Position numbers and translations under genes: made by a program | Shown here: positions 6,450 through 43,011 of the stretch, piece after piece | Layout: the number at the start of each line of letters is the position of its first letter | How positions within the stretch are numbered: the first letter of the stretch is position 1 | Assembly: GCA_947586855.1 (NCBI GenBank) | Contig: CANPXV010000002.1 | Location: forward strand, 57,353-121,352 | From: an uncultured Clostridia bacterium | Lineage (GTDB): Bacteria > Bacillota > Clostridia > Christensenellales > CAG-314 | Direction of reading: 5' to 3' | DNA length: 64,000 nucleotides | Notes under the pieces: model-generated | Told to the model about the DNA's origin: nothing | Seen by the model: only the letters and a program-made list of their open reading frames with translations | The model's database searches: none

Positions 6450-8381
6450 ATGAGCAAACCCACCTACTACATCACCACGCCAATCTATTACAGCAGCGGC
6501 AGCTTTCACCTGGGACACTGCTACACCACCGTCATCTGCGACGCCATTGCCCGATTCAAGCGAATGGACGGCTTTGACGTGTTTTATCTGACGGGCACGG
6601 ACGAGCACGGACAAAAAGTGCAGCAAAAGGCGCAAGCGGCAGGCGTGACGCCCAAACAATACGTGGACAAGCTGTACGATCAGATAGTGGCACTGTGGAA
6701 AACCCTCAACATCAGCTACGACAAGTTTATCCGCACCACCGACGACTACCACGAAAAAACGGTGCAAAAAATTTACGAAAAGCTGCTGCAAAGCGGCGAC
6801 ATCTACAAATCCACCTACGAGGGCTGGTATTGCACGCCCTGCGAGAGCTTTTGGACGGAAAGCCAGCTGCACGACGGCAAATGCCCCGACTGCGGCCGAG
6901 AAGTCAAGCTGCAAAAGGAGGAAAGTTACTTCTTCCGCCTGAGCAAATATCAGGACAGGCTGATACAGTTCTACGAGCAAAATCCCGACTTTATCTCCCC
7001 CAAATCCCGCATGAACGAGATGATAAACAACTTTATCAAGCCGGGGCTTAAAGACTTGTGCATATCCCGCACCACCTTCGATTGGGGCATAAAGCTGCCC
7101 TTCGACCCCAAGCACGTGGCGTATGTGTGGGTGGACGCCCTGACCAACTACATCACGGCGCTGGGCTACCTGCAAGAGGATCACGCCCTGTTTGACAAGT
7201 TTTGGCCGGCGGACCTGCACATGGTGGGCAAGGAAATTGTGCGTTTCCACACGATAATCTGGCCGGCACTGCTTATGGCACTGGATCTGCCCCTGCCCAA
7301 AAAAGTGTACGGGCACGGCTGGCTGCTGTTTGGCAACGACAAAATGTCCAAATCCAAGGGCAACGTCGTGGACCCCTTTGTGCTGGCCGATCGCTACGGC
7401 GCAGACGTCATACGCTACTACCTGCTGAGGGAGATCCCCTTTGGCAGCGACGGCAACTACAACAACGAGGCGCTGCTTACCCGCACCAATGCCGATCTGG
7501 TAAACGACCTTGGCAATCTGGTAAGCCGCACCGCCGCCATGGTGACGCAGTACTTCGGCGGAGAGATCCCCCAACCCAACGCCTACACCGAGCCGGATAG
7601 CGAACTGATTGCGCTGTGCGAGGGCGCCCTGCCCAAGGTGCGCCAATATATGGACGAACTATCCGCACCCGACGCTCTCACCGAGACGCTGCGCATTGTG
7701 CAACGGGCCAACAAGTACATAGACGAGACCATGCCCTGGGCGCTCAACAAAAACGGCGACAAGCAACGTCTGGCCACCGTGATGTACGTTTTGTGCGAGT
7801 GTATCCGCTTTGCCGCAACGCTGTTGGAACCCTTTATACCGCAGACATCCGCCAAGATTTTTGAAAAAATCGGCCTGCCTTTGCCCAAAGACTTTGCCGG
7901 GCTGGGGCGCTTTGGCGGTATCGGACAGGGCGTGACGGTGCACAAGGGGGACAATCTGTTTGACCGCATAGATATCGACAAGGAGCTGAAAGAGTTGGAC
8001 AAGCTGGCCGAACAGGCCGAGCCGGCGGAAAAATCCCCCGCACCCGACGAGCAGACGGAGCAAATCTCCATAGAGGACTTTGCCAAAATCAAGCTGCGCA
8101 CGGCCAAGGTGCTTGGCTGCGAGCGTGTGGCCAAAAGCGACAAGCTACTGCTGCTGAGGCTGCAAGTGGGCAGCGAGGTACGCCAAGTGGTAAGCGGCAT
8201 TGCGCAGCACTACACCCCCGAGTATCTGGTGGGCAAAACAGTTGTGCTGGTGGCCAACCTTCGGCCCGCAAAAATCAGAGGGGTAGAGTCCAACGGCATG
8301 ATATTGTGCGCCGCCGACGACAAAAGCGTAGTGTTTGTCTCGCCGGAAAAGCCCATGGACAGCGGCAAGGAAGTGCGCTGA
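6450..8381 (+). CDS. metG: methionyl-tRNA synthetase
   Basis: HLGH (HIGH-like), KMSKS, Zn-knuckle CxxC..CPDC, C-terminal tRNA-binding domain. Confidence 0.97.
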   Translation: MSKPTYYITTPIYYSSGSFHLGHCYTTVICDAIARFKRMDGFDVFYLTGTDEHGQKVQQKAQAAGVTPKQYVDKLYDQIVALWKTLNISYDKFIRTTDDYHEKTVQKIYEKLLQSGDIYKSTYEGWYCTPCESFWTESQLHDGKCPDCGREVKLQKEESYFFRLSKYQDRLIQFYEQNPDFISPKSRMNEMINNFIKPGLKDLCISRTTFDWGIKLPFDPKHVAYVWVDALTNYITALGYLQEDHALFDKFWPADLHMVGKEIVRFHTIIWPALLMALDLPLPKKVYGHGWLLFGNDKMSKSKGNVVDPFVLADRYGADVIRYYLLREIPFGSDGNYNNEALLTRTNADLVNDLGNLVSRTAAMVTQYFGGEIPQPNAYTEPDSELIALCEGALPKVRQYMDELSAPDALTETLRIVQRANKYIDETMPWALNKNGDKQRLATVMYVLCECIRFAATLLEPFIPQTSAKIFEKIGLPLPKDFAGLGRFGGIGQGVTVHKGDNLFDRIDIDKELKELDKLAEQAEPAEKSPAPDEQTEQISIEDFAKIKLRTAKVLGCERVAKSDKLLLLRLQVGSEVRQVVSGIAQHYTPEYLVGKTVVLVANLRPAKIRGVESNGMILCAADDKSVVFVSPEKPMDSGKEVR

Positions 8382-29620: not shown

Positions 29621-32600
29621 TTATTCTCCTTTTTTGTTTTTCTTTCTTGTGATTGCCAAAATGATCAGTGTTCCGACACCGAGCAGCGAAATCGCCGTTG
29701 CGGCGAGCAGAATGGGGAGATAGGCGACGCCGTCCACAGTAAACGTGTACGCCGAAAGCCCGTCCGCCTCAAACACTATGTAGTCACCGTCACGGGTGTA
29801 TTCGACTTCCGCCGCTCGGCCAACGCTTTGCAACGTAAAGTTTTTGTCTCTGAACTCTTCGGGGATGAGAAGCTGCACGGTCACTTTGCTATCGAGCGGG
29901 ACTTCCGCACCGTTTTTCATAAGTTTCAGAGTGTATTTTTCGGAAAGTTGGTCTCTTTCCCACGCCCAGGAGGTGCGCATGATATTGTCTGCTCCATCGC
30001 ATATAAGTTTCAATGCGGGATCGAATCCGTCTGCGCTGTCAACAATTACATTGGGCAAGTTACTACCGGGAAATGTGTATTCAAGGCGTGTCACAAGATT
30101 GCCCATGCTCACAATGGTCAGAGTTGCGGTCATTGGGTTAATGGGGTTATAATTCTGCGCATCGCCCTCGAAAGTAGCCGTTACGGTGTATTTGCCGACC
30201 GCCTTTTGATCGTTGCCTTCGTAGGTCACGGTCACGCCTTTCGGCAAATCACCTTTGATGGCGATGCTGTGCGCCTGTCCGTCGTAATCCACGGTGACGT
30301 CCTTAAAGGTCACACCCGACATAACGTAATCGGCTTTTGTTATCGTAAAGATGAGAATGATCTCCGCCTCATCGCTCGTTGCCCACTTGAAGTTTGCGCT
30401 GTCCGTAAGCGTGAGTTTGACGTTATAATCGTTCGCATCGATTCCGCCGTTGTTCTCGGTCACGTTATAGAGCAGGGAGGTCTGAACGTCCGCCGTCTGC
30501 GTCACCCCGTTATAAACTTTGCTTGCGATCGTCGGCGCAGTCACCGTCTGTTTTTCGACAATGTAGACATGCGTCTTTGTATCCTCATTGAGCGTATAGT
30601 TCTTTGTCTTGGGGTTCGTGCCATCGAGCGCCGCCTTGAATGCATAGCCCCCTGCGTTCTGGAATGTCTGTGCGGAGTTGCTTAATGCGACCAAAAGCGT
30701 AAATGTGCCGTCGCTACCGATACCCGTCGCAGTCGCAGTAGGAAGATTGGTGAATGCCGTTCCTGTGTAGATATAACTTTCGTCGCCCCAAACAGCTTTG
30801 ATCTCTTTCGCACGTACCGTGAGCGTTCCCGTTTTGCAATTAAAGGCATAATTCTTATCCGAGGAAAGCTCTTTCGGCGTAATGACGTATTCGCCAGCGT
30901 CATCATACGCCTTATACCCGCCGTAATCAAATGCCAAAGTACCCGTGAGATTGCTCTCGCCCTCTCCGTTCACAAAGCCGCTGTACGTTACACCGCCATC
31001 GGAAGGCGAATCGCCGTAAGTAATTTCCTTGTTGTTCGCCGTCACGGTGAGCGTTGCCTTTGCGATGGCGTACTCGAACGTCTTGCCGCCGTGCTCGTTT
31101 GCAAATTCCACATCATAGTCCGAATTAGAGCACATTGGAGTGACGGGATAGGTGCCAGCAGGTGTGCTTATGCTCGGCACTCCGCTCATCCCTTGCAGAG
31201 AATAGGAAAGGCCAAGGACTTCGAAATCATCATCACTCTTCGCCTCATTTTGGGCATACCAAGAACCGACTGCGCCCTCCGTCGCACGGGAGGCGGTTGC
31301 CGTTACCCAACCTGTGTGGGCTTCCCCGTAGGTCGCCCCTTCCTCAAAGGTGAGCGTGACTTTTATTTTTCTTGCCGAAACGGTGAAACTCGGGTTGCCG
31401 CCAGTCCACGCAAACGTAAGATAATTTGAAGTATTTTTGTCCTTGACGGCGACGTAGAGATGATAGGTGCCTAGTGGCAGATTGTCTACCTTTTCCGATT
31501 GCGAGCCGCTTTCGTGCAGAATGCCGTCCTCTGCAACAGTGTAAATATCGTCGTCTGCAACGGTATTGTCCTTGCGAAGATAGAAAATAAAACTATCAAT
31601 ATTGTCTTTGAAGTCTTTCGTTTTGTCTCTATCGAGTTGCCCTATTACTTTTTGGATGCCAGAGAGGATATCTTGTTCGAAGCCCTCTTTCGTGTGGGCG
31701 ACGTCACCGTACTCCACGCCCTTTTCAAAGCCCACTCTTGCCGCCTCGCTCAGAGTGATCGTCAGCTCTTCTACCGCAATGTGGACAACAAAATAATCAT
31801 AGCACGGGTTGTGGTTGCCCTCGGTATCCGTTGCCTTGAAATATACGACGTAGAACATCGGCTCTTTCGCAGTCTGATCTGTGAGGGCATTGTAATCCTT
31901 CCACTCTGTGGCATGTCCCTTTTTCAGCTCATCGAGATAGCTCTTTATCGTAGCTTCGTTATACTCTGTTTCTCCATATTTCCGGACGATATACTGTATC
32001 TTAAGTTTGCTTATGGTGTCCCCGTACCACGCAACATCCTTCCAATTGATGGGGAATGTTTTATCGGTCGGGTCGGGCAGTTTAAGTTCGATCGGCTCCA
32101 TACCCAAACTGTAAACGAACTCCCGCTTCTGTTCAAGTCTCTCGTTATTGAACACCCCCGATCCATTGTTGTTGAACGTCACCATCATATCGGCGGGCAC
32201 GACGGTATATGTAACGGTGATCTCGTTATCTGTGCCGTCATTCCATTTGAATGTCTCTGGGGATTCGGCGCTTTTCTCTGCGGGTTTGACGCTCAGTTTG
32301 TATTCGCCTACTTTTTTCGCCGTAATGGTATGCATCTTATCGTCATACCAACTCTCATCTCCGTCATTTGCAACGGCGGAGATCTCTACCATGTCTGTAT
32401 CTACGAGTCTCCATTTCACACCGTCGGGGGAGTAGGTCTTTGTTTCATTCTTCCAACTATCTTTATCGAGTATCGCAGTGCGCGCGGCGGCAGTCAGATT
32501 GAAATGGATCGCAGGACGCACCCCGCAATTTGCGTTGTTCACAACGAAATTAGCGTAATTGCCAGAAGTGTCGAGTTGGTACGTGCGTTGCGCAGAGAAG

Positions 32601-32870
32601 TAAACACCAGAGCGGAGCCAACAATGGCCCATCCCGACACCGCTGTTTGCGCTTCGGAGAGACGCATCGGTATCCCACATGCCATCGCCGATCCCGCTTG
32701 TGCTACCGTTGGACATGCCCGTTTCCGTCAAAGAGGGAAGCCAAAGGCAGTCGTTTTTCCACGCGTCGTATGCCGTTTCGTCCTTCCCCTTACTGCTGTA
32801 CACGTTCATTGTGACGCCGTCTTTCGTATCCCAATCTGCGTTGTCTGTTTCTTTGTTCGGCGTACCGTAG
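29621..32870 (-). pseudogene. large surface protein (DUF6273-like, MBG/Ig-like repeats, C-terminal TM), apparently 5'-truncated
   Basis: WLPS..E, WLRS..GVRPA motifs, ITYGD..YSGFVNGE MBG-like repeat, C-terminal TM plus KKNKK; no signal peptide or RBS, reading frame runs up into the recombinase terminator. Confidence 0.6.
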
Positions 32871-32883
32871 AATATTCCACGAA

Positions 32884-32908
32884 CAAAGGGCCGCAACAAG
32901 GCCTTTTT
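32884..32908 (-). terminator. terminator of the short recombinase gene
   Basis: AAGGCC-TTGTTGC-GGCCCTTTGTT on the - strand just after the stop. Confidence 0.5.
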
Positions 32909-33811
32909 TTATTGCAGCTGTTTGCCCAAGCGGTTCATCATTGTACGCTTGTGCTCCAAAAGGCTGTGGACGTACAAATCAAGCGTGATCGTGGGGCTTT
33001 TGTGACCGAGAATTTCCGACAATGATTTGACATCCATGCCACATTCCAACGCACGTGTTGCAAACGTATGTCGCAGAGAATGAAACCCCAGGTGCCGTAT
33101 TTGCAGCTTTTTCAGAAGCAGCTCGAACGTGCGCTGATAGGAACGCACCGAGACGGGGTCGTCTCCGCCGACAACATACCTGCCGGACGAATCTCGCTTG
33201 GCCTTTTTGAGAATGTGCAGGATCTGATTGGGCAGAGGGATGACCCGCACCGATGTTTTTGTTTTGGGCGGCTCGATCAGCTTTTTGTAAGCGCCGTTAT
33301 CCCAACTGTCGTGACACGACTGTGTGACGGTGAGCAGCCCCTCTGCAAAGTCGATATTATCCCACGAAAGAGCCATCAATTCTCCGATACGCAAGCCTGT
33401 GTACAAACAGAGCAAAATCCCCACAAGTTTTTGGTTGCCGCTTTGCAAAACGTAGCGCTCGATTGCCCGTTGCTCGTCTTTGGTAAAGCACTCTGCTTGT
33501 TTCTTTTCGGGCTTGGGACGGATTATCCCGTTGGAGTGTTGCCGTTTGGCCGCACCGTAAAGCACCGCCTGTTTAAGCGATTTTTTCAGTACGGAAATGA
33601 TAACATTGACTGTATTTGGCGAAAGCGATACCGTCATACTCGCCACAAATCCCTGCAAAACGCTTGCAGACAGCGTTTCCATCTCGTATCTGCCAAGTTG
33701 GGGAACAAGATGTGTTGTGCAGATACGCTCGTATTTTTCGTAAGTGCGGGCTTTTGTTGTGGGACGCACGCAGACTGCCAGCCACTCCGAAAGCCATTTG
33801 CGATATTTCAT
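32909..33811 (-). CDS. short tyrosine recombinase (no arm-binding domain)
   Basis: GLRIGE, HSLRH, LGH, LYVH catalytic motifs; ATG 33811 with GGAGG RBS. Confidence 0.9.
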   Translation of the reverse strand: MKYRKWLSEWLAVCVRPTTKARTYEKYERICTTHLVPQLGRYEMETLSASVLQGFVASMTVSLSPNTVNVIISVLKKSLKQAVLYGAAKRQHSNGIIRPKPEKKQAECFTKDEQRAIERYVLQSGNQKLVGILLCLYTGLRIGELMALSWDNIDFAEGLLTVTQSCHDSWDNGAYKKLIEPPKTKTSVRVIPLPNQILHILKKAKRDSSGRYVVGGDDPVSVRSYQRTFELLLKKLQIRHLGFHSLRHTFATRALECGMDVKSLSEILGHKSPTITLDLYVHSLLEHKRTMMNRLGKQLQ

Positions 33812-34017
33812 TGTATGGCCCTCCATTATAGTACTTTTATAGATTTTAAAGTAATTTAACAAAAATACGCAAATAATTACGGATCATTGGACCGCCTGAA
33901 AGGTGCGACATACGTCAAAACGCACTACAGGTGCTAAAAAAATTTACCAAACTGCTGATTTTTGAGATATTTGTGTGCGTGCGGCTTGTTGCTGCGGGAC
34001 GTCAAGCGGGTCTGCGC

Positions 34018-34046
34018 TTGCCAATAGTTGCCGAGTGTGCTACAAT
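34018..34046 (+). promoter_or_regulatory. sigmaA promoter of the phosphotransferase gene
   Basis: TTGCCA-17 nt-TACAAT with TG extension. Confidence 0.55.
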
Positions 34047-34187
34047 CTATCCGGGACGGACGCAGCCACTGCGGGGCGCACAGGCAGACGGCGACGACGG
34101 GCAAAACGGGGCAGGTTGTCGGCCGTGGGGCGCACCACTGCCATCCAAGCGGCGAGTAAACGTGCGCAAAACCCCAAAAGGAGAAAA

Positions 34188-35186
34188 ATGGATACTTACG
34201 AACAACTGCAAAAATTGATTTTACAAAACGGCCTGGGCACCAAAATAGTCTCGGTGCAGACGGTTGCGGGCGGACTGACGCACAAAATGTATCGTGTGCA
34301 AACGGACAGGGCCGTCTACGCAATCAAGGTGCTGGACCCCGCCATAATGCGCAAAAAAGAGGCTCTTGGCAACTTTGATTTTTCCGAAAGGGTGGCCCGC
34401 ACAGCCGCACAAAACGGGATACACGCCGTTTGCGCACTGCAATTGGGCGGCAAGGTTGTGCAAAATGTGGACGGGGCGTTTTTGATGGTGTTTGAGTGGC
34501 TGGACGGCACGTCGCTGCGGCCCAAACAGGTAACGTTGCGCCACTGCAATGTCATCGGGCAAACGCTGGCCAATCTGCACAACACGGATTTTGGCGCATT
34601 GGGGGATACACCGCCGCAAAGCACGGCCACGCAGCCGCATTTTGACCGCTACATTGCGCAGGCACATCAACAAAACAAGCCTTTTGCGCAACATCTGCAA
34701 CGGGATGCGACGATGCTATCCGAGTGGGGCGTACGGGCAACGGAGGCAATGGACTGCCTTGGCGGCGAGACGGTCATCAGCCACACCGACCTCGATTGCA
34801 AAAACGTGATGTGGCAGGGGCTGACCCCGTTTGTGATTGATTGGGAGGCAAGCGGCCGCATCAACCCCGCCGCAGAGCTTGTGCAGGTAGCCTGGTATTG
34901 GGCGGGCGGCGATGTGGAAAATCTTCGCCAAAACAAGTTTGAGGCGGTGCTGAACGGCTACGTCGGGACGTATCGGGGGCGGCTGCACGGCTGCTGCGAC
35001 CTTGTGTGCGCCAATCTGTACCCAAAGTTAGCCTGGCTGCAATACAACCTGAAACGGGCGTGCGAGGGGACGGGGCCGACAGAGCTTGCCGACAGCGAAG
35101 TGACAAAAAGCCTGCAAGAGATTGAATATTGCGTCAATCAGATTGACGCTGTGATGCACATGCTGCAAGCGGTTTTGTGGCTGTGA
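34188..35186 (+). CDS. aminoglycoside phosphotransferase (APH)/choline kinase-like family protein
   Basis: GG-x-x-H..AIK, Brenner motif HTDLDCKN, IDWE; RBS AAGGAG. Confidence 0.8.
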   Translation: MDTYEQLQKLILQNGLGTKIVSVQTVAGGLTHKMYRVQTDRAVYAIKVLDPAIMRKKEALGNFDFSERVARTAAQNGIHAVCALQLGGKVVQNVDGAFLMVFEWLDGTSLRPKQVTLRHCNVIGQTLANLHNTDFGALGDTPPQSTATQPHFDRYIAQAHQQNKPFAQHLQRDATMLSEWGVRATEAMDCLGGETVISHTDLDCKNVMWQGLTPFVIDWEASGRINPAAELVQVAWYWAGGDVENLRQNKFEAVLNGYVGTYRGRLHGCCDLVCANLYPKLAWLQYNLKRACEGTGPTELADSEVTKSLQEIEYCVNQIDAVMHMLQAVLWL

Positions 35187-35347
35187 GCGGAAAGAGTAAC
35201 ATGTGCGGTTTGTAATGCTTGACGCCTTGTCATTACAAAAACACGCCCACGATTGAGCGGCAAAGCAAACAAGTGGCAAAAGAAAAAAAGAGTTCACTTT
35301 GCGTGGACTCTTTTCTGTTGTGATTGCGCCGAACCCTTTTCCGCATG

Positions 35348-35917
35348 TCAAACGGCGGTGTGGTCGCGTGCGGTATTTTTGCGCACAAAAATCGCCTTGA
35401 ACACTGTTCGCACAAGGGGCTGGATGAACAGCAGCTGCAAAAAAAATGCAAAGGGCAGGTTGTAGCAAATCAACTTTAACCAATTTGCGAGCAACGTTGC
35501 AAAATTGAACGTCGAAACGCCATACGGGTAGTACATGATGGCTGCAAGCAAGCTCATGGACGGGCACATGAGCCCCACCGTCGCAATTATTATTGCCGAC
35601 TCAAAAATAACAGGGTGCACGCTGCCCGGCTTAAACACACGGCACACCAGGCGGAAGCTGCACGGACTACCCAACACACATTCGAGGGTATAGGCGAGGG
35701 CAAATTCTACAAGTATTACCGCCCAAATGGGTATTGGGTGACCGAAAACGGCCACGCCTCCCATTGCGTTGATTGCGGCAATGACGCTTGGCTCTCCCGT
35801 GAGCTGCATAAAGGTGGCGCCGTTGATGACGTACAAGCTGTAAAACACATAGCCGTGCACCGTTATCACCACGGTGATGAGGGCAAAAATCATACGTTGA
35901 AACAAATTTTTGGGCAT
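35348..35917 (-). CDS. DUF2798-like membrane protein
   Basis: MPKNLFQRMIFALITV, N.P.AFF.QLLFIQPLVR..F pattern; multiple TM segments. Confidence 0.65.
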   Translation of the reverse strand: MPKNLFQRMIFALITVVITVHGYVFYSLYVINGATFMQLTGEPSVIAAINAMGGVAVFGHPIPIWAVILVEFALAYTLECVLGSPCSFRLVCRVFKPGSVHPVIFESAIIIATVGLMCPSMSLLAAIMYYPYGVSTFNFATLLANWLKLICYNLPFAFFLQLLFIQPLVRTVFKAIFVRKNTARDHTAV

Positions 35918-36151
35918 AATTCCTCCAAATCGAAAAAAAACACATGTCCTCGCCTGCGCAAACCGAATGCGGAACGTGCCGTGATCAGATTTATATGCGC
36001 AAGGCAAAACATGTGTCGTTTTCCGAAAATATTGATAGTTGAGCTTTATTTTACATCAAATTTGACATTTTTGCAAACGTTTGACGGAAATTTGCGCCAA
36101 AGACAAAGCGATGGCAAAATGCCACCACAAACATTCGGACAAAACAAAATA

Positions 36152-36181
36152 CCCAGCCAAACCCTTGCGGGTTCGACTGGG
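36152..36181 (-). terminator. probable original tRNA-operon terminator displaced by island insertion
   Basis: CCCAG..AACCC-GCAA-GGGTT..CTGGG followed by a U-rich run, directly after the duplicated tRNA 3' end. Confidence 0.55.
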
Positions 36182-36188
36182 CACTGTA

Positions 36189-36214
36189 TGGTGGGGAGTA
36201 CAGGGCTCGAACCT
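36189..36214 (-). repeat. att copy (3' 26 nt of tRNA-Val)
   Basis: TGGTGGGGAGTACAGGGCTCGAACCT, identical to 42418-42443. Confidence 0.92.
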
Positions 36215-36233
36215 CTCAACGACTTATTCAAAA

Positions 36234-36281
36234 CCACAATATATAGCATAATATTTGCTATCTAAACACAATATATAGTGT
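36234..36281. promoter_or_regulatory. tandem NrdR-box-like palindromes
   Basis: CCACAATATATAGCAT and ACACAATATATAGTGT, 32 bp apart. Confidence 0.5.
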
Positions 36282-36293
36282 TTTGGCAAATCG

Positions 36294-36313
36294 TACCCCC
36301 AATTTACCCCCAA
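36294..36313 (+). repeat. arm-type sites TACCCCCAA x2
   Basis: same doublet at 42299-42319. Confidence 0.65.
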
Positions 36314-36373
36314 CTTTAATTCCTTAATTAAATATGTTTTTCAATGTTTTTCACGACCTTTTAGGGCGTCAAG

Positions 36374-39300
36374 CTAAGATGCGGTTACAGCCTCATGAAA
36401 TTTGGGAGTGACTCGATAGTAAGGTTGCTTAGTTCTATTGATTCGGCGAAAATCCAGCAAATCTTGCGCCTTTAATGCTAACAATAGATTTTCAACACAC
36501 TCATTTTGAGGTATTTTTATATGGTCGTATGTCATATACAGTTGGTTCCATCCTTCTCCCAGCGATTTTATATAAGCAATGTATTTACCCTTCTCTTGCG
36601 GAATTTTAATGTTAGAAACACTCCATTGCAATAATAGCATCTTATCCTCGGCATCCATGACAACAGAAGTAAATTGCCATAATATATCTGTTGGAACACC
36701 TCGAACACGTTTAATAAAGAACATCCGATATGCTTCAGCATAATCCCCAATATCTATTATTGATGCACATTTTTCAATCAGCATTTCTTTGATACTATCA
36801 TTAGCATCAGATTTCATGACCTCTCCCAAAAGATTATTGATTTGATTTCTACGATTATTGTCATATTTTGTGAATTTTGCAGGCAAAGCGCAATCGAAAA
36901 ACGCATCAAAATCCGTCAATATCTGTTGGGTATTTTTCTTAATATACATCTCGCAACTATGCGGGATTAAAATTAACCGTTCTAAATCATCAGAGCAGTA
37001 AACAAATTGTCCCAACTCAATAGCTACCGCAAGATTTTTATCAAATATATCCGTACCCTGTTCCTGAACAATTTTCGCCATATTCAACTGACTTAATTTA
37101 TAACTAACATCAATCATGTTTAATAATGATCTTATACCCTTATTTGCCGATTGATAGAACTTCAAAATGTCCACATATAGCGCCAATGCCTTTTCTCCTG
37201 TTTGGTCAACAACACAAATAAATTCTCCACCAACTTCGTTATTAACAATGTAGTTTTCCACCCCTTTTTCACGGTATCCTATTACACTATGCGCAAAAAT
37301 GACATTCTCCCATTTGGGCACCACTTTTTTCTCTGCGAGTAATGTATAAAACAGACCTGTGTCATACTCTGCTATGTTTGTAATTTGAATTATGCACTTT
37401 TTAATGATTGCCTCACGATTTGCCAATTCAATATTTTCATTTTTGAGAAGTTCTTCAACATTCTCTTGCAATTCCTCTGTCAGCGTTATTCCCTTTTCTA
37501 GTAAAATAGTAGATACATAGTCATTTATATTCTGCATTATGTAATCCAAAACACATTGCTTTTTAGACTGCTTTATGAAGCTAAAGTTCCCCGAATAAAA
37601 TTTCTGCGATTCTTGTGTTCCGTCCTTTATACCATATATAATCGTCAAATTCTCCAATGTCAGTACATACCTATTATTCTCTATAATATATTGTTGAATC
37701 CTATTGTTTAAAGGCTCCTTACTGATGTTGTCAAAAATCAAATTTAACTCTCTAATAGCGTTAATCGCCTTATCCTCCCCCGCGAACAAAAAAATATTCA
37801 TATAGTTGACAGTCTTTACAAGGTAATTCGACAGTTGATGCTCACAGTCATGCGCTATGTAGTCACTCGAATATTTTATTACACAACCCACCAATAATTC
37901 TTTTTTCTTCTCCGGTAGCTTGTTAGATGAAATCAATGTACTGCAAAGCGTGCAACGTTTATCAATTATCTCTTTCAAAAGCTTCTCTACTTGCATTTCA
38001 TCCGCAAGAATTACATATTGTTCAATTGCATCAAAAACCCTAGAATCGGAGGAATTTTGCAAATATGTAATCAAAATATCGCTTTTTTGAGTATGTTCAC
38101 GTTTATCAATTTCCGCTATATCATCAATGCTATCCAGCATTGTTTTGTTTAGTATGGCAGGACGCTTAAAATCTTCCTCATCAAGTCGTGCAACCACGCT
38201 TTTAATATCATTTGGAGTATATGCAAAGTCTTGTTTCCCGATTTGAATATCTGCTGCAAATTGTGCATCTTGCGGAGTTATTAATTGCGACTTGTAATTT
38301 GAAGTATACTCTTTATAATGTTCATCAATAAAACCATTCAACACGAGAAACTTAAGATATCTTATCTGTTCATCCACTTGTTTCTCCAGATTAATTTTTT
38401 TATCATTACCATCATCGCATGATTTTAATTCCAAGCCATAGCTAGTCAAATATTGTTTTTGAAGATTATCATCAAAACAGTTTTCCATACCCAGTCGATC
38501 CACCAGTTCAGCAAACGAGTATCCTTCTATTTCCATTTTCTCTTTTTGTAGGTTGGCAATCGACCTTCTGACAACATCACCATTGTTTTTAATTTTTTCA
38601 ATTATTGTTTTTTCTCTATCGGCATAATGCTCACCACTGGGCGTGAGGAGTTCGCCCTCTCCATTTGAAATAGAAATATAATACCCTTTGTAGTAAGGAT
38701 GCTCTACTTTCTTATGGTTCAATCCGATAAACGAGAAATCTTTGTCCATAATGTCATCGCTTGTCACCTTGTCGCCAGCATAGGTCCCTCGCGACTGATG
38801 ACATGCCTGTCCTAAAAACATATATTTTAATTCTGAAATTGATTCTAAACATTCTTTATTTATCTTCTCCAATATTTTATTGGTTTCTTTTAGTTTTACA
38901 TCGAGATCCTCTAATAATTCCTGCTTCATTTTTTCCGTATCAACGACCATGGGTATAAGACCCAAACCTTGCTCAAGAAATGAATAGTCATAAGGGAACA
39001 GATTTTTATAAAGCGAAATGGCAAAGAGATTCTCATTACTCAATGAGCCCGCCTTCACATCGGAGTCTTCAAATATTTTACTGTACATAATGACATAATC
39101 ATTCAAAGTGTTATTAAGAATTCGCATATCCGGAATATATGCTGATACACCCTTTATAAACCTGTCTTGAAGTCCCATTTTATCATTTTTCTTTGTACAA
39201 TTGTCTATTTGTTTTCTCAGTTCTTCTGCGGTAGTTACAGGATTTATAATGGGAACAATAGGCAAAATAAAGTCGAAGAATTTTGCTCGTTCTTCCTCTG

Positions 39301-40210
39301 TTGTGAACAAATCGTCTTTTACAGCATATAAGAATGTTACTTTTCCTTTCTTTTTTCTGGTATTATTTATTATTGTATTAAGTTCTCTTAATTTGGCAAA
39401 TATATCCGTTGTAGACAATCTGTCCAAATCCTCAAATATAACGAGATCTACGTTGGTACAATCAAAGAAATACAATACCTCATCAATAAATTTATTAATA
39501 AGGCTAATGGCGTTTTCGTCTGTCTGATTAATATTTAATTCGAAATCCTTGTATTTGATCTTGACAAATTTTCTATAATGAATCCAGTAAATTAACATTG
39601 AAAAGAATAGCAAAGTGGCTGTGACGATATAAACAAACTTCACCCACTCAATATTCCAATATACATCAACATTGCTAACTGCCAAAATGGACATTGCCAC
39701 CATGGCAAAAAATAAAAAATACCAAAACGCCTTCAACACAGACTGCCACATTGGAATTTTGTTAGTTCTTTTTATATCAGAATTTGGGAGATCGTTTTTA
39801 GTGCGACTATATAAAAGTTGTTGCAATATACTTCTCTCTATGGATGTTTCATCATAAGCCGCACCATTGAAGGTTGATAATGTTATACGTGTATATTTAT
39901 TTTTTCTAGGGGCTCCCAACGACAAACCTTTTTTTATTTCTTTTGTTTGCCTTCGATAATTATGAAGGTACGTGTTTAAAACGCTGCTCTTGCCCGCACC
40001 ATATTTGGCGACAACCGCAACATTATAAACATTTGGACTATCAATTTGTTCTTTAAGAATTTTTGCCTCGATATTATAATCCGGAAAAAATTTTGGTGAA
40101 TTGTCTTTCAATAACTCCAAATATGCGAAATCATCTTCATTGTTTTTATTGAATGTGTTGACATCGCCATGTTTTTCAATACTCACACAATCACTTCGAA
40201 ATTTACGCAT
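36374..40210 (-). CDS. YobI/KAP-like P-loop NTPase with two TM helices and a long helical C-terminus
   Basis: NVAVVAKYGAGKSS, VIFEDLDR, KLRELN, YAVKDDLF..R.KFFDFILPIVP motifs; 1278 aa. Confidence 0.8.
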   Translation of the reverse strand: MRKFRSDCVSIEKHGDVNTFNKNNEDDFAYLELLKDNSPKFFPDYNIEAKILKEQIDSPNVYNVAVVAKYGAGKSSVLNTYLHNYRRQTKEIKKGLSLGAPRKNKYTRITLSTFNGAAYDETSIERSILQQLLYSRTKNDLPNSDIKRTNKIPMWQSVLKAFWYFLFFAMVAMSILAVSNVDVYWNIEWVKFVYIVTATLLFFSMLIYWIHYRKFVKIKYKDFELNINQTDENAISLINKFIDEVLYFFDCTNVDLVIFEDLDRLSTTDIFAKLRELNTIINNTRKKKGKVTFLYAVKDDLFTTEEERAKFFDFILPIVPIINPVTTAEELRKQIDNCTKKNDKMGLQDRFIKGVSAYIPDMRILNNTLNDYVIMYSKIFEDSDVKAGSLSNENLFAISLYKNLFPYDYSFLEQGLGLIPMVVDTEKMKQELLEDLDVKLKETNKILEKINKECLESISELKYMFLGQACHQSRGTYAGDKVTSDDIMDKDFSFIGLNHKKVEHPYYKGYYISISNGEGELLTPSGEHYADREKTIIEKIKNNGDVVRRSIANLQKEKMEIEGYSFAELVDRLGMENCFDDNLQKQYLTSYGLELKSCDDGNDKKINLEKQVDEQIRYLKFLVLNGFIDEHYKEYTSNYKSQLITPQDAQFAADIQIGKQDFAYTPNDIKSVVARLDEEDFKRPAILNKTMLDSIDDIAEIDKREHTQKSDILITYLQNSSDSRVFDAIEQYVILADEMQVEKLLKEIIDKRCTLCSTLISSNKLPEKKKELLVGCVIKYSSDYIAHDCEHQLSNYLVKTVNYMNIFLFAGEDKAINAIRELNLIFDNISKEPLNNRIQQYIIENNRYVLTLENLTIIYGIKDGTQESQKFYSGNFSFIKQSKKQCVLDYIMQNINDYVSTILLEKGITLTEELQENVEELLKNENIELANREAIIKKCIIQITNIAEYDTGLFYTLLAEKKVVPKWENVIFAHSVIGYREKGVENYIVNNEVGGEFICVVDQTGEKALALYVDILKFYQSANKGIRSLLNMIDVSYKLSQLNMAKIVQEQGTDIFDKNLAVAIELGQFVYCSDDLERLILIPHSCEMYIKKNTQQILTDFDAFFDCALPAKFTKYDNNRRNQINNLLGEVMKSDANDSIKEMLIEKCASIIDIGDYAEAYRMFFIKRVRGVPTDILWQFTSVVMDAEDKMLLLQWSVSNIKIPQEKGKYIAYIKSLGEGWNQLYMTYDHIKIPQNECVENLLLALKAQDLLDFRRINRTKQPYYRVTPKFHEAVTAS

Positions 40211-40245
40211 TTATAAAAATTCTCCTTATCTGTAAACTGACCGAT

Positions 40246-41682
40246 TTATCTTTCCTTTTGCCTTTCAACAAAACCAAGCATATATAAAAATGCAGGAGCG
40301 GGGATGCGATATATCTTTTTATCTCCATAGGCGCACTCTCCAAAATCTGTCGCCCTCTTAGTAATGACGAGATTAGGCTGCTGTACATTTGATAATGCAA
40401 CTATAGCATCGTTATTTGCTATTTTTGCTTGATCTCTGTACTTAACCTCTATCATTATTGGCAAAAAACGGTTGGATTTCACAACAATATCTATCTCATT
40501 TTGTTTACTTCCACCACGATAATATCCGATTTGTGCCGCTGTTTCATAATAGAAGGACTTAATGTGTTTATATACTGCCGTTTCCGCAATAATACCAAGC
40601 TCTTCTGCATTATTGGTTATGTCGTCCAACATCAGCACCGCATTCCGCATTGCGGCATCTGCAATATAAATTTTATTTTGTGACTTAAGTACCTGTTTTG
40701 CTCCTATATCTATCGGTTGACTTATATATATAAGGTTAGCACTTTCTAAGTACTCTATATATTTTTCTATCGTTATGCGGCTGACACCATCCAATTCTTT
40801 GGACACTGTTTGCACGTTGATAATGTTGGAAGATGTGTAGCAAAGATACAAAAACAACTTTTCTATATCCGTCACATTACGAACGCCATAAATTGCCGGC
40901 AAGTCGCGTTTGAGAGCTTTATCCACAATATCCTCACGCAATACACGTTGTGCGTAAATGTCATTTTTACTCAATGCAAGTTCCGGAAAACCTCCAACTT
41001 GTAGATAGCGTATAAACTCAACTTGCAGACTGGCAAGTTTATTAAAAATATCAGTTTGTTCCCAAGTGGGTCGTTTGTATACTTGTGTAGGCTTAAGATC
41101 TGTAGGTAAATCGGTGACTTTAATATTCAAAAGCTCACAATATTCAAAAAAAGACAATGTCGGCACATGTATAATCTTCCACCTGCCCAGACCGCTTTCG
41201 GTATTTTTTTCTTTCAAAACCGGACTGGCAGAACCTGTCGCCATTATTTTTATATGTGGCTTAGTATCATATAGTATTTTGAGCCAACTGTTCCAATCCT
41301 GAGCATATTGAATTTCGTCAAAGAAACAGAAGCATGTTTCATCTCCGCTAATATTGCTGCTATATACTTCCATTACCTTGTCAATCGTGCACAGCTTAAA
41401 AAGCGGATGATCAAACGAAACAAACATAATGTTTCTCGGAGCCACGCCCTTTTGGATTAACTCGCTGATTGCCTGATACATTATTGTAGTCTTACCTGTT
41501 CGTCTTGCCCCGCACAGAATCACAGAACGGCGTATATCTTCATTCAAAACCGTTTGCATCGCCTCGTAGAAAGCGAACCGCTTAATTGGTTTGTCAAATT
41601 CTTGCTGTACTCCACCCGTTTGCCACCACGGATTATACGAAAAAAGCAACCTTAAGATGTTTTCGGAATCAGTAATTTTCAT
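40246..41682 (-). CDS. AAA_14 plus DUF4143-type ATP-binding protein
   Basis: GARRTGKTT, FFDEIQ, TGSAS, YLQVGGFPE, K.YIAD, EIDIV..IEVK. Confidence 0.85.
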   Translation of the reverse strand: MKITDSENILRLLFSYNPWWQTGGVQQEFDKPIKRFAFYEAMQTVLNEDIRRSVILCGARRTGKTTIMYQAISELIQKGVAPRNIMFVSFDHPLFKLCTIDKVMEVYSSNISGDETCFCFFDEIQYAQDWNSWLKILYDTKPHIKIMATGSASPVLKEKNTESGLGRWKIIHVPTLSFFEYCELLNIKVTDLPTDLKPTQVYKRPTWEQTDIFNKLASLQVEFIRYLQVGGFPELALSKNDIYAQRVLREDIVDKALKRDLPAIYGVRNVTDIEKLFLYLCYTSSNIINVQTVSKELDGVSRITIEKYIEYLESANLIYISQPIDIGAKQVLKSQNKIYIADAAMRNAVLMLDDITNNAEELGIIAETAVYKHIKSFYYETAAQIGYYRGGSKQNEIDIVVKSNRFLPIMIEVKYRDQAKIANNDAIVALSNVQQPNLVITKRATDFGECAYGDKKIYRIPAPAFLYMLGFVERQKER

Positions 41683-41700
41683 ATTTTCCTCCTTGAGATA

Positions 41701-41729
41701 ATTATATCCAACGCAAGCAGCTTTGTCAA
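41701..41729 (-). promoter_or_regulatory. consensus promoter of the two-ATPase operon
   Basis: TTGACA-17 nt-TATAAT followed by an AAGGAGG RBS. Confidence 0.8.
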
Positions 41730-41884
41730 CAGTAATTTACATTTTTTTTGAAATTATTAATAGTATAATATCAATAATTTGCAATTTTATGTAAACCAGC
41801 CCCGTTGCTGTGACAATGATGTTTGCGTTGGCTTTTATTTATATTTAGTAATAGTTCTATATCTTGCCTATATTTCGTCTTACG

Positions 41885-42293
41885 GTTTCAGCTCATGTTT
41901 GCAGTTGCTTTGTATACAGGTTTAAGACCAAACGAGTACAAAAGCGTCAGAATTGACGGAGATATGCTTATTGCCGTCAACAGCAAACGTAAAGGTGGAG
42001 AAGTTGCATACAAACGTATTCCCGTGAACGCAATGTTAAAACCGTATTTGGAGGGGATAACGACCGTAAAATGGGTAAAATTGGACACAATTCGAGAAAA
42101 ATTCAACGCTGTACTGCCAAACCACAAATTATATGATTTGAGAACAACTTTCTACACTCACTGCGTAACTTGCGGAGTTGCGGAAAGCGCAAGGGATGAA
42201 ATGGTCGGACACTCCGGCGGCAAGTTGAAAGACACCTATACCGACCTTCCTGACGACTACTTGAAACAGGAAGCCGCCAAGTTGATTTGGTAG
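41885..42293 (+). pseudogene. tyrosine integrase, catalytic C-terminal fragment only
   Basis: YTGLRPNE, DLRTTF, VGH, DTY; N-terminal domains absent. Confidence 0.8.
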
Positions 42294-42298
42294 GTTTG

Positions 42299-42319
42299 TA
42301 CCCCCAATTGTACCCCCAA
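42299..42319 (+). repeat. arm-type sites TACCCCCAA x2
   Basis: directly after the integrase stop. Confidence 0.65.
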
Positions 42320-42380
42320 AATTGAGTTTAGAATATGTGCGAGTGGCGCGCTCTCCCTAAAAATCGTCCAAAAAAGCACG

Positions 42381-42416
42381 AAAAAAGAGGTATTTTGGTT
42401 AGAAATACCTCTTTTT
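42381..42416 (-). terminator. terminator after tRNA-Val (supplied by the island)
   Basis: AAAAAGAGGTATT/AATACCTCTTTTT inverted repeat. Confidence 0.75.
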
Positions 42417-42417
42417 G

Positions 42418-42493
42418 TGGTGGGGAGTACAGGGCTCGAACCTGTGACCCCCTGCTTGTAAGGCAGATGCTCTCCCAACTGAGCTAACTCCCC
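42418..42493 (-). tRNA. tRNA-Val(TAC)
   Basis: GGGGAGTTAGCTCAG..anticodon loop TTACAAG..GTTCGAGC..ACCA. Confidence 0.95.
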
Positions 42494-42495
42494 TT

Positions 42496-42570
42496 TGGTG
42501 ACTCCTACGAGAATCGAACTCGTGTTACCGCCGTGAAAGGGCGATGTCTTGACCGCTTGACCAAGGAGCC
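42496..42570 (-). tRNA. tRNA-Glu(TTC)
   Basis: GGCTCCTTGGTCAAGCGG..loop CTTTCAC..GTTCGATT..ACCA. Confidence 0.95.
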
Positions 42571-42574
42571 ATTG

Positions 42575-42651
42575 TGGTAGCGGCGGTCGGATTCGAACCA
42601 ACGACCTGCCGGGTATGAACCGGCCGCTATAACCAACTAAGCTACGCCGCC
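42575..42651 (-). tRNA. tRNA-Met(CAT), elongator-type
   Basis: GGCGGCGTAGCTTAG..GCCGG-TTCATAC-CCGGC..GTTCGAATC..ACCA. Confidence 0.93.
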
Positions 42652-42684
42652 ATTGCTTGTTGCGCCACTGTCAAAAGCTTATTT

Positions 42685-42713
42685 ATTGTATCAAAAAATG
42701 TGCGCCTTGTCAA
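42685..42713 (-). promoter_or_regulatory. tRNA operon promoter
   Basis: TTGACA-17 nt-TACAAT with TG extension. Confidence 0.8.
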
Positions 42714-43011
42714 CAGAATTTGTGTTGTTTTGCTGCAATTGTGCTCTTTTGTGCGCTTTTGTTGATATTTGCGGGGATGGGCGTCTTGACCGAAATTTGT
42801 TTTGCGTGATTATTTTTGCAATCGGGCGGGCGAGTTGTTGAAATGTGAGGCGAAATGGAGCGAGGTAAATGTTGCACCTCGATGGCGTTTTGTGACGAGG
42901 TTGGCGGACGGGGATTTATCGGCGAGAACAAAAGGGACTAACAGCGTGACGATGTCGCAAAATCGGCAAATTGGGGCGCATCTTAAAAAAATCGCCACCC
43001 CATGTGCGCAA

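What the first reader, a model, noticed from the sequence alone, without database searches (positions are those of the whole stretch)
36374..41729. Two-ATPase operon (AAA_14/DUF4143 plus YobI/KAP-like NTPase) as sole cargo of a tRNA-Val island: candidate anti-phage system
Seen: a perfect-consensus promoter drives a 478-aa ATPase with C-terminal PD-(D/E)xK-like residues (EID..IEVK) and, 35 nt later, a 1278-aa membrane-associated P-loop NTPase with a long helical tail; both are AT-rich and intact while the integrase has decayed. Known: KAP-family NTPases such as PifA act in phage exclusion, and tRNA islands often carry defence genes. Inferred: retained for defence, possibly as a sensor plus nuclease pair.
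Basis: partly seen in the sequence, partly recalled or inferred. Interest (0 to 1): 0.65.

Follow-up and report, generated by a model that had tools for sequence, protein, structure and literature searches.

The report
Two stand-alone defence genes on tRNA island
A 6.2-kb foreign island inserted in a valine tRNA gene carries a relative of the known anti-phage membrane ATPase Tmn and a common, untested ATPase-nuclease defence candidate (PDC-S01). They share a promoter here but are found together nowhere else, so this is an ordinary small defence island and not a new two-gene system.

Summary
Two intact minus-strand genes sit 35 nt apart behind the only 12/12 TTGACA-17-TATAAT promoter in the region: 41682-40246 (478 aa) and 40210-36374 (1278 aa). 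They are the only cargo of an AT-rich island (36% G+C against 51-55%). The island is bounded by a perfect 26-nt repeat of the tRNA-Val 3' end, and a same-genus genome shows the empty site. The integrase keeps only its last ~134 of 412 residues.

The large gene is a Tmn homologue. It hits the PADLOC Tmn model (E 2e-74) and Pfam YobI-ATPase (E 2.5e-87), has two transmembrane helices between Walker A and B, and is 24% identical over 1001 alignment columns to the E. coli plasmid Tmn. Tmn is an experimentally characterised single-gene defence. The small gene is PADLOC candidate PDC-S01: an ORC/STAND-like AAA+ ATPase, a winged helix and a McrC-like PD-(D/E)xK nuclease. This family is very common and untested.

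The sensor-plus-nuclease pair reading fails its own test:
- 32 loci with Tmn homologues lack the ATPase-nuclease.
- 85 loci with homologues of the ATPase-nuclease lack Tmn.
- Eight other Tmn-bearing genomes show no linkage.

Verdict: new members of known kinds. A looser synergy through Tmn-driven ATP depletion remains possible. Interest is low to moderate.

The parts
42418..42493 (-). tRNA-Val (anticodon TAC), last gene of a Met-Glu-Val tRNA cluster. Its 3' 26 nt (42418-42443) form the left attachment-site core.
   Evidence: ARAGORN, Rfam tRNA 70 bits, direct repeat D5.
42382..42416 (-). Island-borne terminator-like hairpin directly after the tRNA. It replaces the original tRNA terminator, which was displaced 6.2 kb away.
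   Evidence: Terminator scan, 14-pair stem plus T run; sequence.
42298..42316 (.). Subterminal repeat (GTACCCCCAATTGTACCCC), about 100 nt inside the left end. It is a possible arm-type recombinase site, paired with 36293-36311.
   Evidence: Repeat family D7, 84% identity. The function is inferred.
41882..42293 (+). 5'-truncated tyrosine integrase remnant (ORF 41895-42293, 132 aa). It corresponds to about residues 279-412 of a 412-aa integrase. The arm-binding, SAM-like and central domains are lost.
   Evidence: 91% identity over 152 residues to the full-length integrase at the same tRNA-Val in same-genus genome G002. DNA identity starts at window 41882. The full-length protein matches phrog_1 integrase at E 2.8e-34 and Pfam Phage_int_M.
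41701..41729 (-). Consensus sigma-70-type promoter, TTGACA-17 nt-TATAAT, 18 nt upstream of the first ATG.
   Evidence: The only 12/12 match in 35900-42700; sequence.
40246..41682 (-). PDC-S01-type protein (478 aa). It has an AAA+ ATPase (Walker A GARRTGKT 58-65, Walker B FFDE 120-123), a helical and winged-helix region (about 270-340) and a C-terminal PD-(D/E)xK nuclease domain (E367, D398, E412, K414).
   Evidence: Pfam AAA_14 plus DUF4143. PADLOC PDC-S01 E 8.3e-63. AF2 model pLDDT 82.9 with ORC/Cdc6/Apaf-1/CED-4/Avs5 fold matches. C-terminal domain model pLDDT 91.8, best match McrC at E 1e-4, then Can2, SPARDA, EcoRV and VRR-NUC. Invariant residues.
40211..40245 (-). 35-nt intergenic spacer with an AAGGAG ribosome-binding site and no terminator. 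Co-transcription is likely but not shown.
   Evidence: Sequence. No terminator-like site there.
36374..40210 (-). Tmn homologue (1278 aa). It has a YobI-type P-loop NTPase with two transmembrane helices (161-179, 192-210) inserted between Walker A (69-76) and Walker B (256-263), followed by a C-terminal region of about 860 aa.
   Evidence: Pfam YobI-ATPase E 2.5e-87. PADLOC Tmn E 2.1e-74. 24% identity over 1001 alignment columns, E 2e-55, to the E. coli IncF plasmid 'anti-phage transmembrane ATPase'. Hydropathy and motifs. Invariant residues in 22 homologues.
36293..36311 (.). Subterminal repeat (GTACCCCCAATTTACCCCC), about 80 nt inside the right end. It is the partner of 42298-42316.
   Evidence: Repeat family D7.
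36189..36214 (-). Right attachment-site core, a perfect 26-nt copy of the tRNA-Val 3' end.
   Evidence: Repeat family D5, 100% identity. Junction compared with the empty site in G018:C2.
36148..36185 (-). Original tRNA-Val terminator hairpin. It now lies downstream of the island and is the first strong terminator after the Tmn gene.
   Evidence: 17-pair stem plus T run. It directly follows tRNA-Val in same-genus genomes without the island.

Best explanation
A 6,229-bp integrative island (window 36215-42443, counting one repeat copy) inserted into the 3' end of tRNA-Val. It was later immobilised when the 5' two-thirds of its tyrosine integrase were lost. Its only cargo is two independent single-gene immune modules, probably transcribed together from one consensus promoter.

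The downstream gene is a Tmn-family transmembrane P-loop NTPase. By homology to E. coli Tmn it is expected to work as follows. It sits in the membrane as an oligomer. Its long cytosolic helical arms recognise a phage protein. Recognition raises ATP turnover and drives Mg2+ export. The resulting plasmolysis and ATP collapse stop phage replication.

The upstream gene is a PDC-S01-type protein: an ORC/STAND-like AAA+ ATPase, a winged helix and a McrC-like PD-(D/E)xK nuclease. It most likely acts as a nucleotide-controlled DNA nuclease. That role is inferred and is untested for the whole family.

The two are neighbours on a mobile element. They are not an obligate sensor-effector pair.
For: Island:
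- A perfect 26-nt repeat of the tRNA end bounds it.
- The empty site, with tRNA-Val directly followed by the same terminator flank, is present in the same-genus genome G018. Matches of the same kind are seen in G014 and G010.
- G+C is 0.356 against 0.51-0.55 in the flanks.
- The integrase remnant is 91% identical to residues 261-412 of a full 412-aa integrase at the same tRNA in G002.
- The identical island sits in the same context on at least 8 metagenome contigs.

Tmn membership:
- PADLOC Tmn E 2.1e-74 and Pfam YobI-ATPase E 2.5e-87.
- tblastn finds 458 Escherichia plasmid records, several annotated 'anti-phage transmembrane ATPase'.
- The alignment to one of them gives E 2e-55 across residues 57-971.
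- The order Walker A, two transmembrane helices, Walker B is the same as in the E. coli protein.
- The mechanism and the lack of a conserved operon come from bioRxiv 10.64898/2026.03.01.708804.

PDC-S01:
- PADLOC E 8.3e-63.
- Structural models and fold matches.
- Invariant catalytic residues.

Independence of the two genes:
- 25 genome loci and the 4 nearest Tmn homologues (45-50% identity) have other neighbours: a type I R-M system, AbiH, HipA, or none.
- 85 loci with homologues of the small gene have no Tmn, and 58 of them hold at least 1.5 kb downstream.
- YobI was found in 9 of 399 sampled class genomes. Three of the eight others have DUF4143 genes, always on other contigs or megabases away.
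- The nearest homologue is 78% identical for the small gene and 50% for the large one.
Against:
- Identity to the validated E. coli Tmn is only 24%, and the last ~300 residues do not align. Trigger and output may therefore differ.
- PDC-S01 has never been shown to defend.
- A 35-nt gap without a terminator behind one strong promoter is what a functional operon would also look like.
- Published Tmn synergy with ATPase-nuclease systems leaves room for cooperation here.
Confidence: 0.8

Rival explanations
1. Facultative synergy. The two genes are autonomous, but keeping them in one transcript is selected. ATP depletion driven by Tmn would release the ATPase-nuclease, in the way Tmn potentiates Gabija, Septu I and PrrC in E. 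coli.
For: Tmn synergises with ATPase-plus-nuclease systems that are held inactive by ATP, and it co-localises with Gabija on plasmids. The small gene is an ATPase fused to a nuclease. The 35-nt gap and single promoter fit co-expression.
Against: The known partners use ABC ATPases. This protein has an ORC/STAND-like AAA+ fold. No other adjacency of the two families was found in 117 loci. PDC-S01 is so common that one chance adjacency is expected.
Confidence: 0.15
2. Obligate two-gene system. One protein senses and the other executes, and neither works alone.
For: Operon-like layout behind one promoter. The identical pair is kept on at least 8 metagenome contigs of the same species.
Against: There is no co-occurrence in either direction. 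Tmn is self-sufficient in E. coli and has no conserved partner. Each protein already combines sensor-like and effector-like parts. The two families show very different divergence from their nearest homologues.
Confidence: 0.04
3. The small gene is not an immune gene. AAA_14/DUF4143 proteins would serve some other DNA transaction or a selfish function, and it is merely a passenger next to Tmn.
For: PDC candidates were nominated by genomic embedding only and are untested. Close homologues sit alone among housekeeping genes in two of three loci read. The family is extremely abundant, with 10,358 copies in 6,530 rumen genomes. The fold resembles ORC/Cdc6 initiators.
Against: The nuclease residues are invariant. 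Homologues are consistently AT-rich relative to their flanks. One homologue sits in an integrase element with AbiEii. Here the gene lies on a mobile island beside a defence gene.
Confidence: 0.25

Closest known systems
Tmn (transmembrane NTPase; PADLOC PDLC02220; E. coli IncF plasmid 'anti-phage transmembrane ATPase' WP_251122276.1)
   Same: Same length class (1278 against 1271 aa). Both have a YobI-type P-loop NTPase with two transmembrane helices inserted between Walker A and B. Walker B and the following block (FEDLDR...KLRE.N.IINN...FFDF..P..P) are conserved. Homology runs to residue ~971. Both are single-gene modules on mobile DNA.
   Different: Only 24% identity. The host is a small-genome gut Clostridia bacterium, not an enterobacterium. 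The gene is chromosomal on a tRNA island and not on a plasmid. The C-terminal ~300 residues do not align, so the phage trigger is probably different. The nearest database relative is only 50% identical.
PDC-S01 (PADLOC phage defence candidate; COG1373; Pfam AAA_14 + DUF4143)
   Same: Full-length match to model PDLC04787 (E 8.3e-63, profile positions 16-406 of 412). Same two-domain architecture. The PD-(D/E)xK residues are conserved.
   Different: Nothing distinguishes it from the family, and homologues at 70-78% identity are plentiful. The family itself has no demonstrated function.
McrBC (AAA+ motor McrB plus PD-(D/E)xK nuclease McrC)
   Same: An AAA+ NTPase is combined with a McrC-like nuclease fold. 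McrC is the best structural match of the C-terminal domain (E 1e-4, TM 0.51-0.56).
   Different: This is one polypeptide, not two subunits. The ATPase resembles ORC/Cdc6/STAND and not McrB. It has a winged helix in place of the McrB DNA-reading domain. There is no evidence for dependence on modified DNA.
Tmn + Gabija / Septu I co-localised pairs on E. coli plasmids
   Same: Tmn lies next to an ATPase-nuclease module on a mobile element.
   Different: The partner here is an AAA+/REase single protein, not an ABC-ATPase/TOPRIM or HNH system. The adjacency is not recurrent.

Membership tests
Tmn defence family | Match to the PADLOC Tmn profile | tested here: met
   PDLC02220 E 2.1e-74, 249 bits. 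Residues 230-972 match profile positions 251-993 of 1273.
Tmn defence family | YobI-type P-loop NTPase domain with conserved Walker A and Walker B | tested here: met
   PF20693 E 2.5e-87 over residues 50-418. G71, G73, K74, S75 and E260, D261, D263 are invariant in 22 homologues. Motifs located.
Tmn defence family | Two transmembrane helices inserted between Walker A and Walker B | tested here: met
   Hydropathy peaks at 161-179 and 192-210, and none elsewhere. The E. coli Tmn has the same arrangement at 156-174 and 198-216.
Tmn defence family | Long C-terminal alpha-helical (solenoid-like) cytosolic arms, total length about 1270 aa | tested here: inconclusive
   Length is 1278 aa and sequence homology to E. 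coli Tmn reaches residue 971. The fold was not modelled because the protein exceeds the 1200-aa limit. The last ~300 aa have no detectable similarity.
Tmn defence family | Self-contained, with no conserved partner gene | tested here: met
   Neighbours vary across 32 homologue loci. The literature says the same.
Tmn defence family | Protects against phage, with infection-induced ATP turnover, Mg2+ export and plasmolysis | not testable with these tools
   Shown for E. coli variants only.
PDC-S01 (AAA_14 + DUF4143) | Match to a PADLOC PDC-S01 profile and the AAA_14 + DUF4143 architecture | tested here: met
   PDLC04787 E 8.3e-63, and six further PDC-S01 profiles also match. PF13173 E 1.1e-30 and PF13635 E 1.1e-27.
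PDC-S01 (AAA_14 + DUF4143) | C-terminal PD-(D/E)xK nuclease fold with catalytic acidic and lysine residues | tested here: met
   Domain model pLDDT 91.8 with alpha-beta-beta-beta-alpha-beta order. Fold matches are McrC, Can2, SPARDA, EcoRV, AvaII and VRR-NUC. E367, D398, E412 and K414 are invariant in 42 homologues. DUF4143 is listed in the PD-(D/E)xK superfamily (PMC3424549).
PDC-S01 (AAA_14 + DUF4143) | Anti-phage function | not testable with these tools
   The candidate set is untested (10.1101/2024.01.29.577857; PMC12988326).
tRNA-integrated genomic island | Direct repeat of the tRNA 3' end at the far boundary, integrase next to the tRNA, foreign composition, and an empty site in relatives | tested here: met
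   26-nt perfect repeat. Integrase remnant adjacent to the tRNA. G+C 0.356 against 0.51-0.55. Empty site in G018:C2. The integrase is truncated, so the element is probably no longer mobile on its own.
   Only YobI-ATPase was reported at E <= 0.1. The inserted transmembrane hairpin is the KAP-like trait, and one paper calls Tmn a KAP NTPase.
Obligate two-gene sensor-nuclease system | Conserved adjacency of the two gene families across lineages | tested here: not met
   0 of 32 and 0 of 85 loci. 0 of 8 Tmn-bearing genomes show linkage.
Gabija/Septu-type ATP-sensing partners of Tmn | ABC-type ATPase coupled to a TOPRIM or HNH nuclease | tested here: not met
   Fold matches are ORC/Cdc6, Apaf-1, CED-4, RuvB and Avs5 (AAA+/STAND), not ABC. 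The nuclease is PD-(D/E)xK.

The most novel reading that the evidence does not exclude
The co-transcribed pair is a working example of layered immunity in a streamlined 1.47-Mb gut Clostridia genome. ATP collapse triggered by Tmn would switch on the PDC-S01 ATPase-nuclease. That would give the very abundant but uncharacterised PDC-S01 family its first proposed activation signal, and would extend Tmn synergy from ABC-ATPase systems to AAA+/REase proteins.
Probability: 0.12. Interest if true: 0.55.

Novelty: new member of a known kind. Interest (0 to 1): 0.25.

Why it matters
This is a clean, minimal natural construct: one promoter, two genes and exact island borders. It puts a divergent Firmicute Tmn next to a member of what one survey ranks as the fourth most common predicted defence across prokaryotes, PDC-S01, which nobody has tested. 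As a finding it is ordinary. Both genes would be called by PADLOC, and tRNA islands that carry defence genes are well known. Its practical value is as a compact test case for two questions: whether PDC-S01 defends at all, and whether Tmn-driven ATP depletion can activate an AAA+/nuclease protein.

Tried and rejected
- Sensor-nuclease pair: rejected after neighbourhood searches in both directions and a class-wide genome sample.
- PDB sequence search: the only hits for the small protein were designer pentatricopeptide proteins with no aligned stretch, which I take as spurious. The large protein had no hits.
- PHROGs: no match for either cargo protein, so there is no sign of a phage origin.
- NCBIfam: no family reached its cut-off.
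- Rfam: only the three tRNAs in 35500-43000.
- Supplementary neighbourhood tables of the Tmn preprint are not held.
- A full-length model of the Tmn homologue was not possible, because 1278 aa exceeds the 1200-aa limit.
- The weak Pfam hits of the small protein (NERD, UPF0102, nSTAND3, HTH_11) were treated only as hints. They are consistent with the modelled domains.
Full report
**What is there.** The region has 33-38% G+C inside 50-57% surroundings. By gene the values are 0.385 and 0.340, against 0.51 and 0.55 in the flanks. The promoter TTGACA-17 nt-TATAAT at 41729-41701 is the only 12/12 match in 6.8 kb. The weaker matches are no more frequent than in shuffled sequence. It lies 18 nt upstream of the ATG with AGGAGG between, so I infer a very short leader. 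The 35-nt gap between the genes carries AAGGAG and no terminator-like site. Co-transcription is therefore likely.

**The island.**
- tRNA-Val(TAC) at 42418-42493 ends a Met-Glu-Val tRNA cluster.
- Its last 26 nt recur perfectly at 36189-36214. This defines an element of 6,229 bp.
- In the same-genus genome G018 the tRNA-Val is followed directly by the terminator hairpin that sits beyond the right repeat in the window (36185-36148). This is the empty site, read letter by letter. Matches of the same kind appear in G014 and G010.
- The island brings its own terminator-like hairpin right after the tRNA (42416-42382).
- It keeps similar GGGGGTA-type subterminal repeats near both ends. These may be recombinase arm sites, which is my inference.
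- The ORF next to the tRNA (41895-42293, + strand) is the C-terminal third of a tyrosine integrase. Same-genus genome G002 has a 412-aa integrase at the same tRNA-Val (phrog_1 E 2.8e-34; Pfam central and SAM-like domains).
- The window matches that integrase from residue ~279 onward (91% identity over 152 residues). DNA identity starts abruptly at window 41882.
- The element has therefore lost its DNA-binding integrase domains and is probably fixed in place.
- No DNA of the cargo was found in 30 relatives. The identical island in the same context occurs on at least eight metagenome contigs.

**The large gene is a Tmn.**
- P0002 matches Pfam YobI-ATPase (E 2.5e-87) and the PADLOC Tmn profile (E 2.1e-74).
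- tblastn against plasmids finds 628 records, 458 of them Escherichia, and several are annotated 'anti-phage transmembrane ATPase'.
- Against one such protein (1271 aa, IncF plasmid) the alignment runs from residue 57 to 971 at 24% identity, E 2e-55.
- Both proteins have exactly two hydrophobic helices between Walker A and Walker B. The NTPase motifs are invariant in 22 homologues.
- A 2026 preprint (10.64898/2026.03.01.708804) describes Tmn as a YobI-family transmembrane NTPase that forms a membrane decamer. Its cytosolic helical arms recognise phage T2 RIIB. It then raises ATP turnover, exports Mg2+ and causes plasmolysis. Its C-terminal region is variable and sets specificity, and it has no conserved operon architecture.
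- P0002's nearest relative in 5.8 billion proteins is only 50% identical. It is a divergent new member, most likely with a different trigger.

**The small gene is PDC-S01.**
- P0001 has AAA_14 and DUF4143 and matches seven PADLOC PDC-S01 profiles, the best at E 8.3e-63.
- An AlphaFold2 model (pLDDT 82.9, pTM 0.85) resembles ORC/Cdc6, Apaf-1, CED-4, RuvB and Avs5. That is an AAA+/STAND-like nucleotide-binding domain followed by a helical and winged-helix region.
- The C-terminal 124 residues, modelled with 42 homologues (pLDDT 91.8), best match McrC. The next matches are Can2, SPARDA, EcoRV, AvaII, VRR-NUC and the Lamassu nuclease LmuA, all PD-(D/E)xK enzymes.
- E367, D398, E412 and K414 sit on the expected helix and strands and are invariant down to 27% identity.
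- DUF4143 was already placed in this superfamily (PMC3424549).
- PDC-S01 is reported as the fourth most common predicted defence across prokaryotes (PMC12988326) and the most frequent single locus in rumen genomes (PMC13356809).
- It belongs to 145 candidates nominated by genomic embedding and never tested (10.1101/2024.01.29.577857).

**Is it a pair?** No.
- In 25 representative-genome loci with Tmn homologues, plus seven loci from the four nearest homologues (45-50% identity), neither tblastn nor a family HMM at E <= 10 finds a relative of P0001.
- The nearest homologues instead follow a type I restriction gene, follow AbiH in a serine-recombinase element, lie near HipA, or stand alone after ftsZ.
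- In the other direction, three close homologues of P0001 (74-76% identity) and 80 metagenome loci (36-74%) contain no Tmn by tblastn or HMM. Of these 85 loci, 58 have at least 1.5 kb downstream.
- In a sample of 399 genomes of the host's class, YobI occurs in nine. Of the eight others, three have DUF4143 genes, always on other contigs or megabases away.
- P0001 has thousands of relatives, the closest at 78% identity. P0002's closest is 50%. This points to separate histories.

**What remains open.** E. coli Tmn synergises with Gabija, Septu I and PrrC. These are ATPase-nuclease systems that are released when ATP falls, and Tmn co-localises with Gabija on plasmids. An ATPase-nuclease transcribed together with Tmn fits that theme loosely. 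However, the ATPase here is AAA+/STAND-like and not ABC, the adjacency is unique, and PDC-S01 is so common that one chance adjacency is expected. I give this reading about 0.12-0.15.

**Verdict.** The defence interpretation is right in kind, but the locus is two stand-alone modules of known kinds on a decayed tRNA island. It is not a new two-gene system. The assembly is 1.47 Mb in 36 contigs and 93% complete.

Noticed in passing
window 32909-33862 (-): An intact 317-aa tyrosine recombinase (Phage_integrase E 3.3e-25 plus the SAM-like domain). It lies 2.3 kb outside the island, next to a 1092-aa surface-protein gene (29621-32899). It belongs to a different element, which an earlier first-reader note describes as a tRNA-Ser cassette array.
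   Followed up: partly
L041 (G002:C7:163-1401): A same-genus genome carries the full-length 412-aa integrase at the same tRNA-Val, 97% identical in DNA to the remnant. The contig ends 162 nt upstream, so the cargo of the intact element is unknown.
   Followed up: partly
L031 8001-12008 and flanks: The nearest Tmn homologue (50% identity) starts 28 nt after a type I restriction hsdR gene. That operon has a Fic gene embedded in it, and an AAA_23 / MC2 / CTD6 cluster lies nearby. This is a larger defence island with another apparent co-transcription of Tmn with an unrelated system.
   Followed up: no
L046, L048, L050 (about 7550-8000 in each): In all three loci read, close homologues of the small gene are preceded by about 450 nt of non-coding DNA. 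In the window the promoter sits right at the gene. The long upstream region was not examined.
   Followed up: no
window 33975-35186 (+) and 35028-35567 (-): An APH/choline-kinase-family phosphotransferase gene and an overlapping 179-aa ORF without family matches lie between the island and the other recombinase.
   Followed up: no
L104 422-784 (-) and 7045-7467 (+): One metagenome contig holds two divergent DUF4143 nuclease domains about 6 kb apart on opposite strands. This suggests paralogous copies of the PDC-S01 family in one neighbourhood.
   Followed up: no
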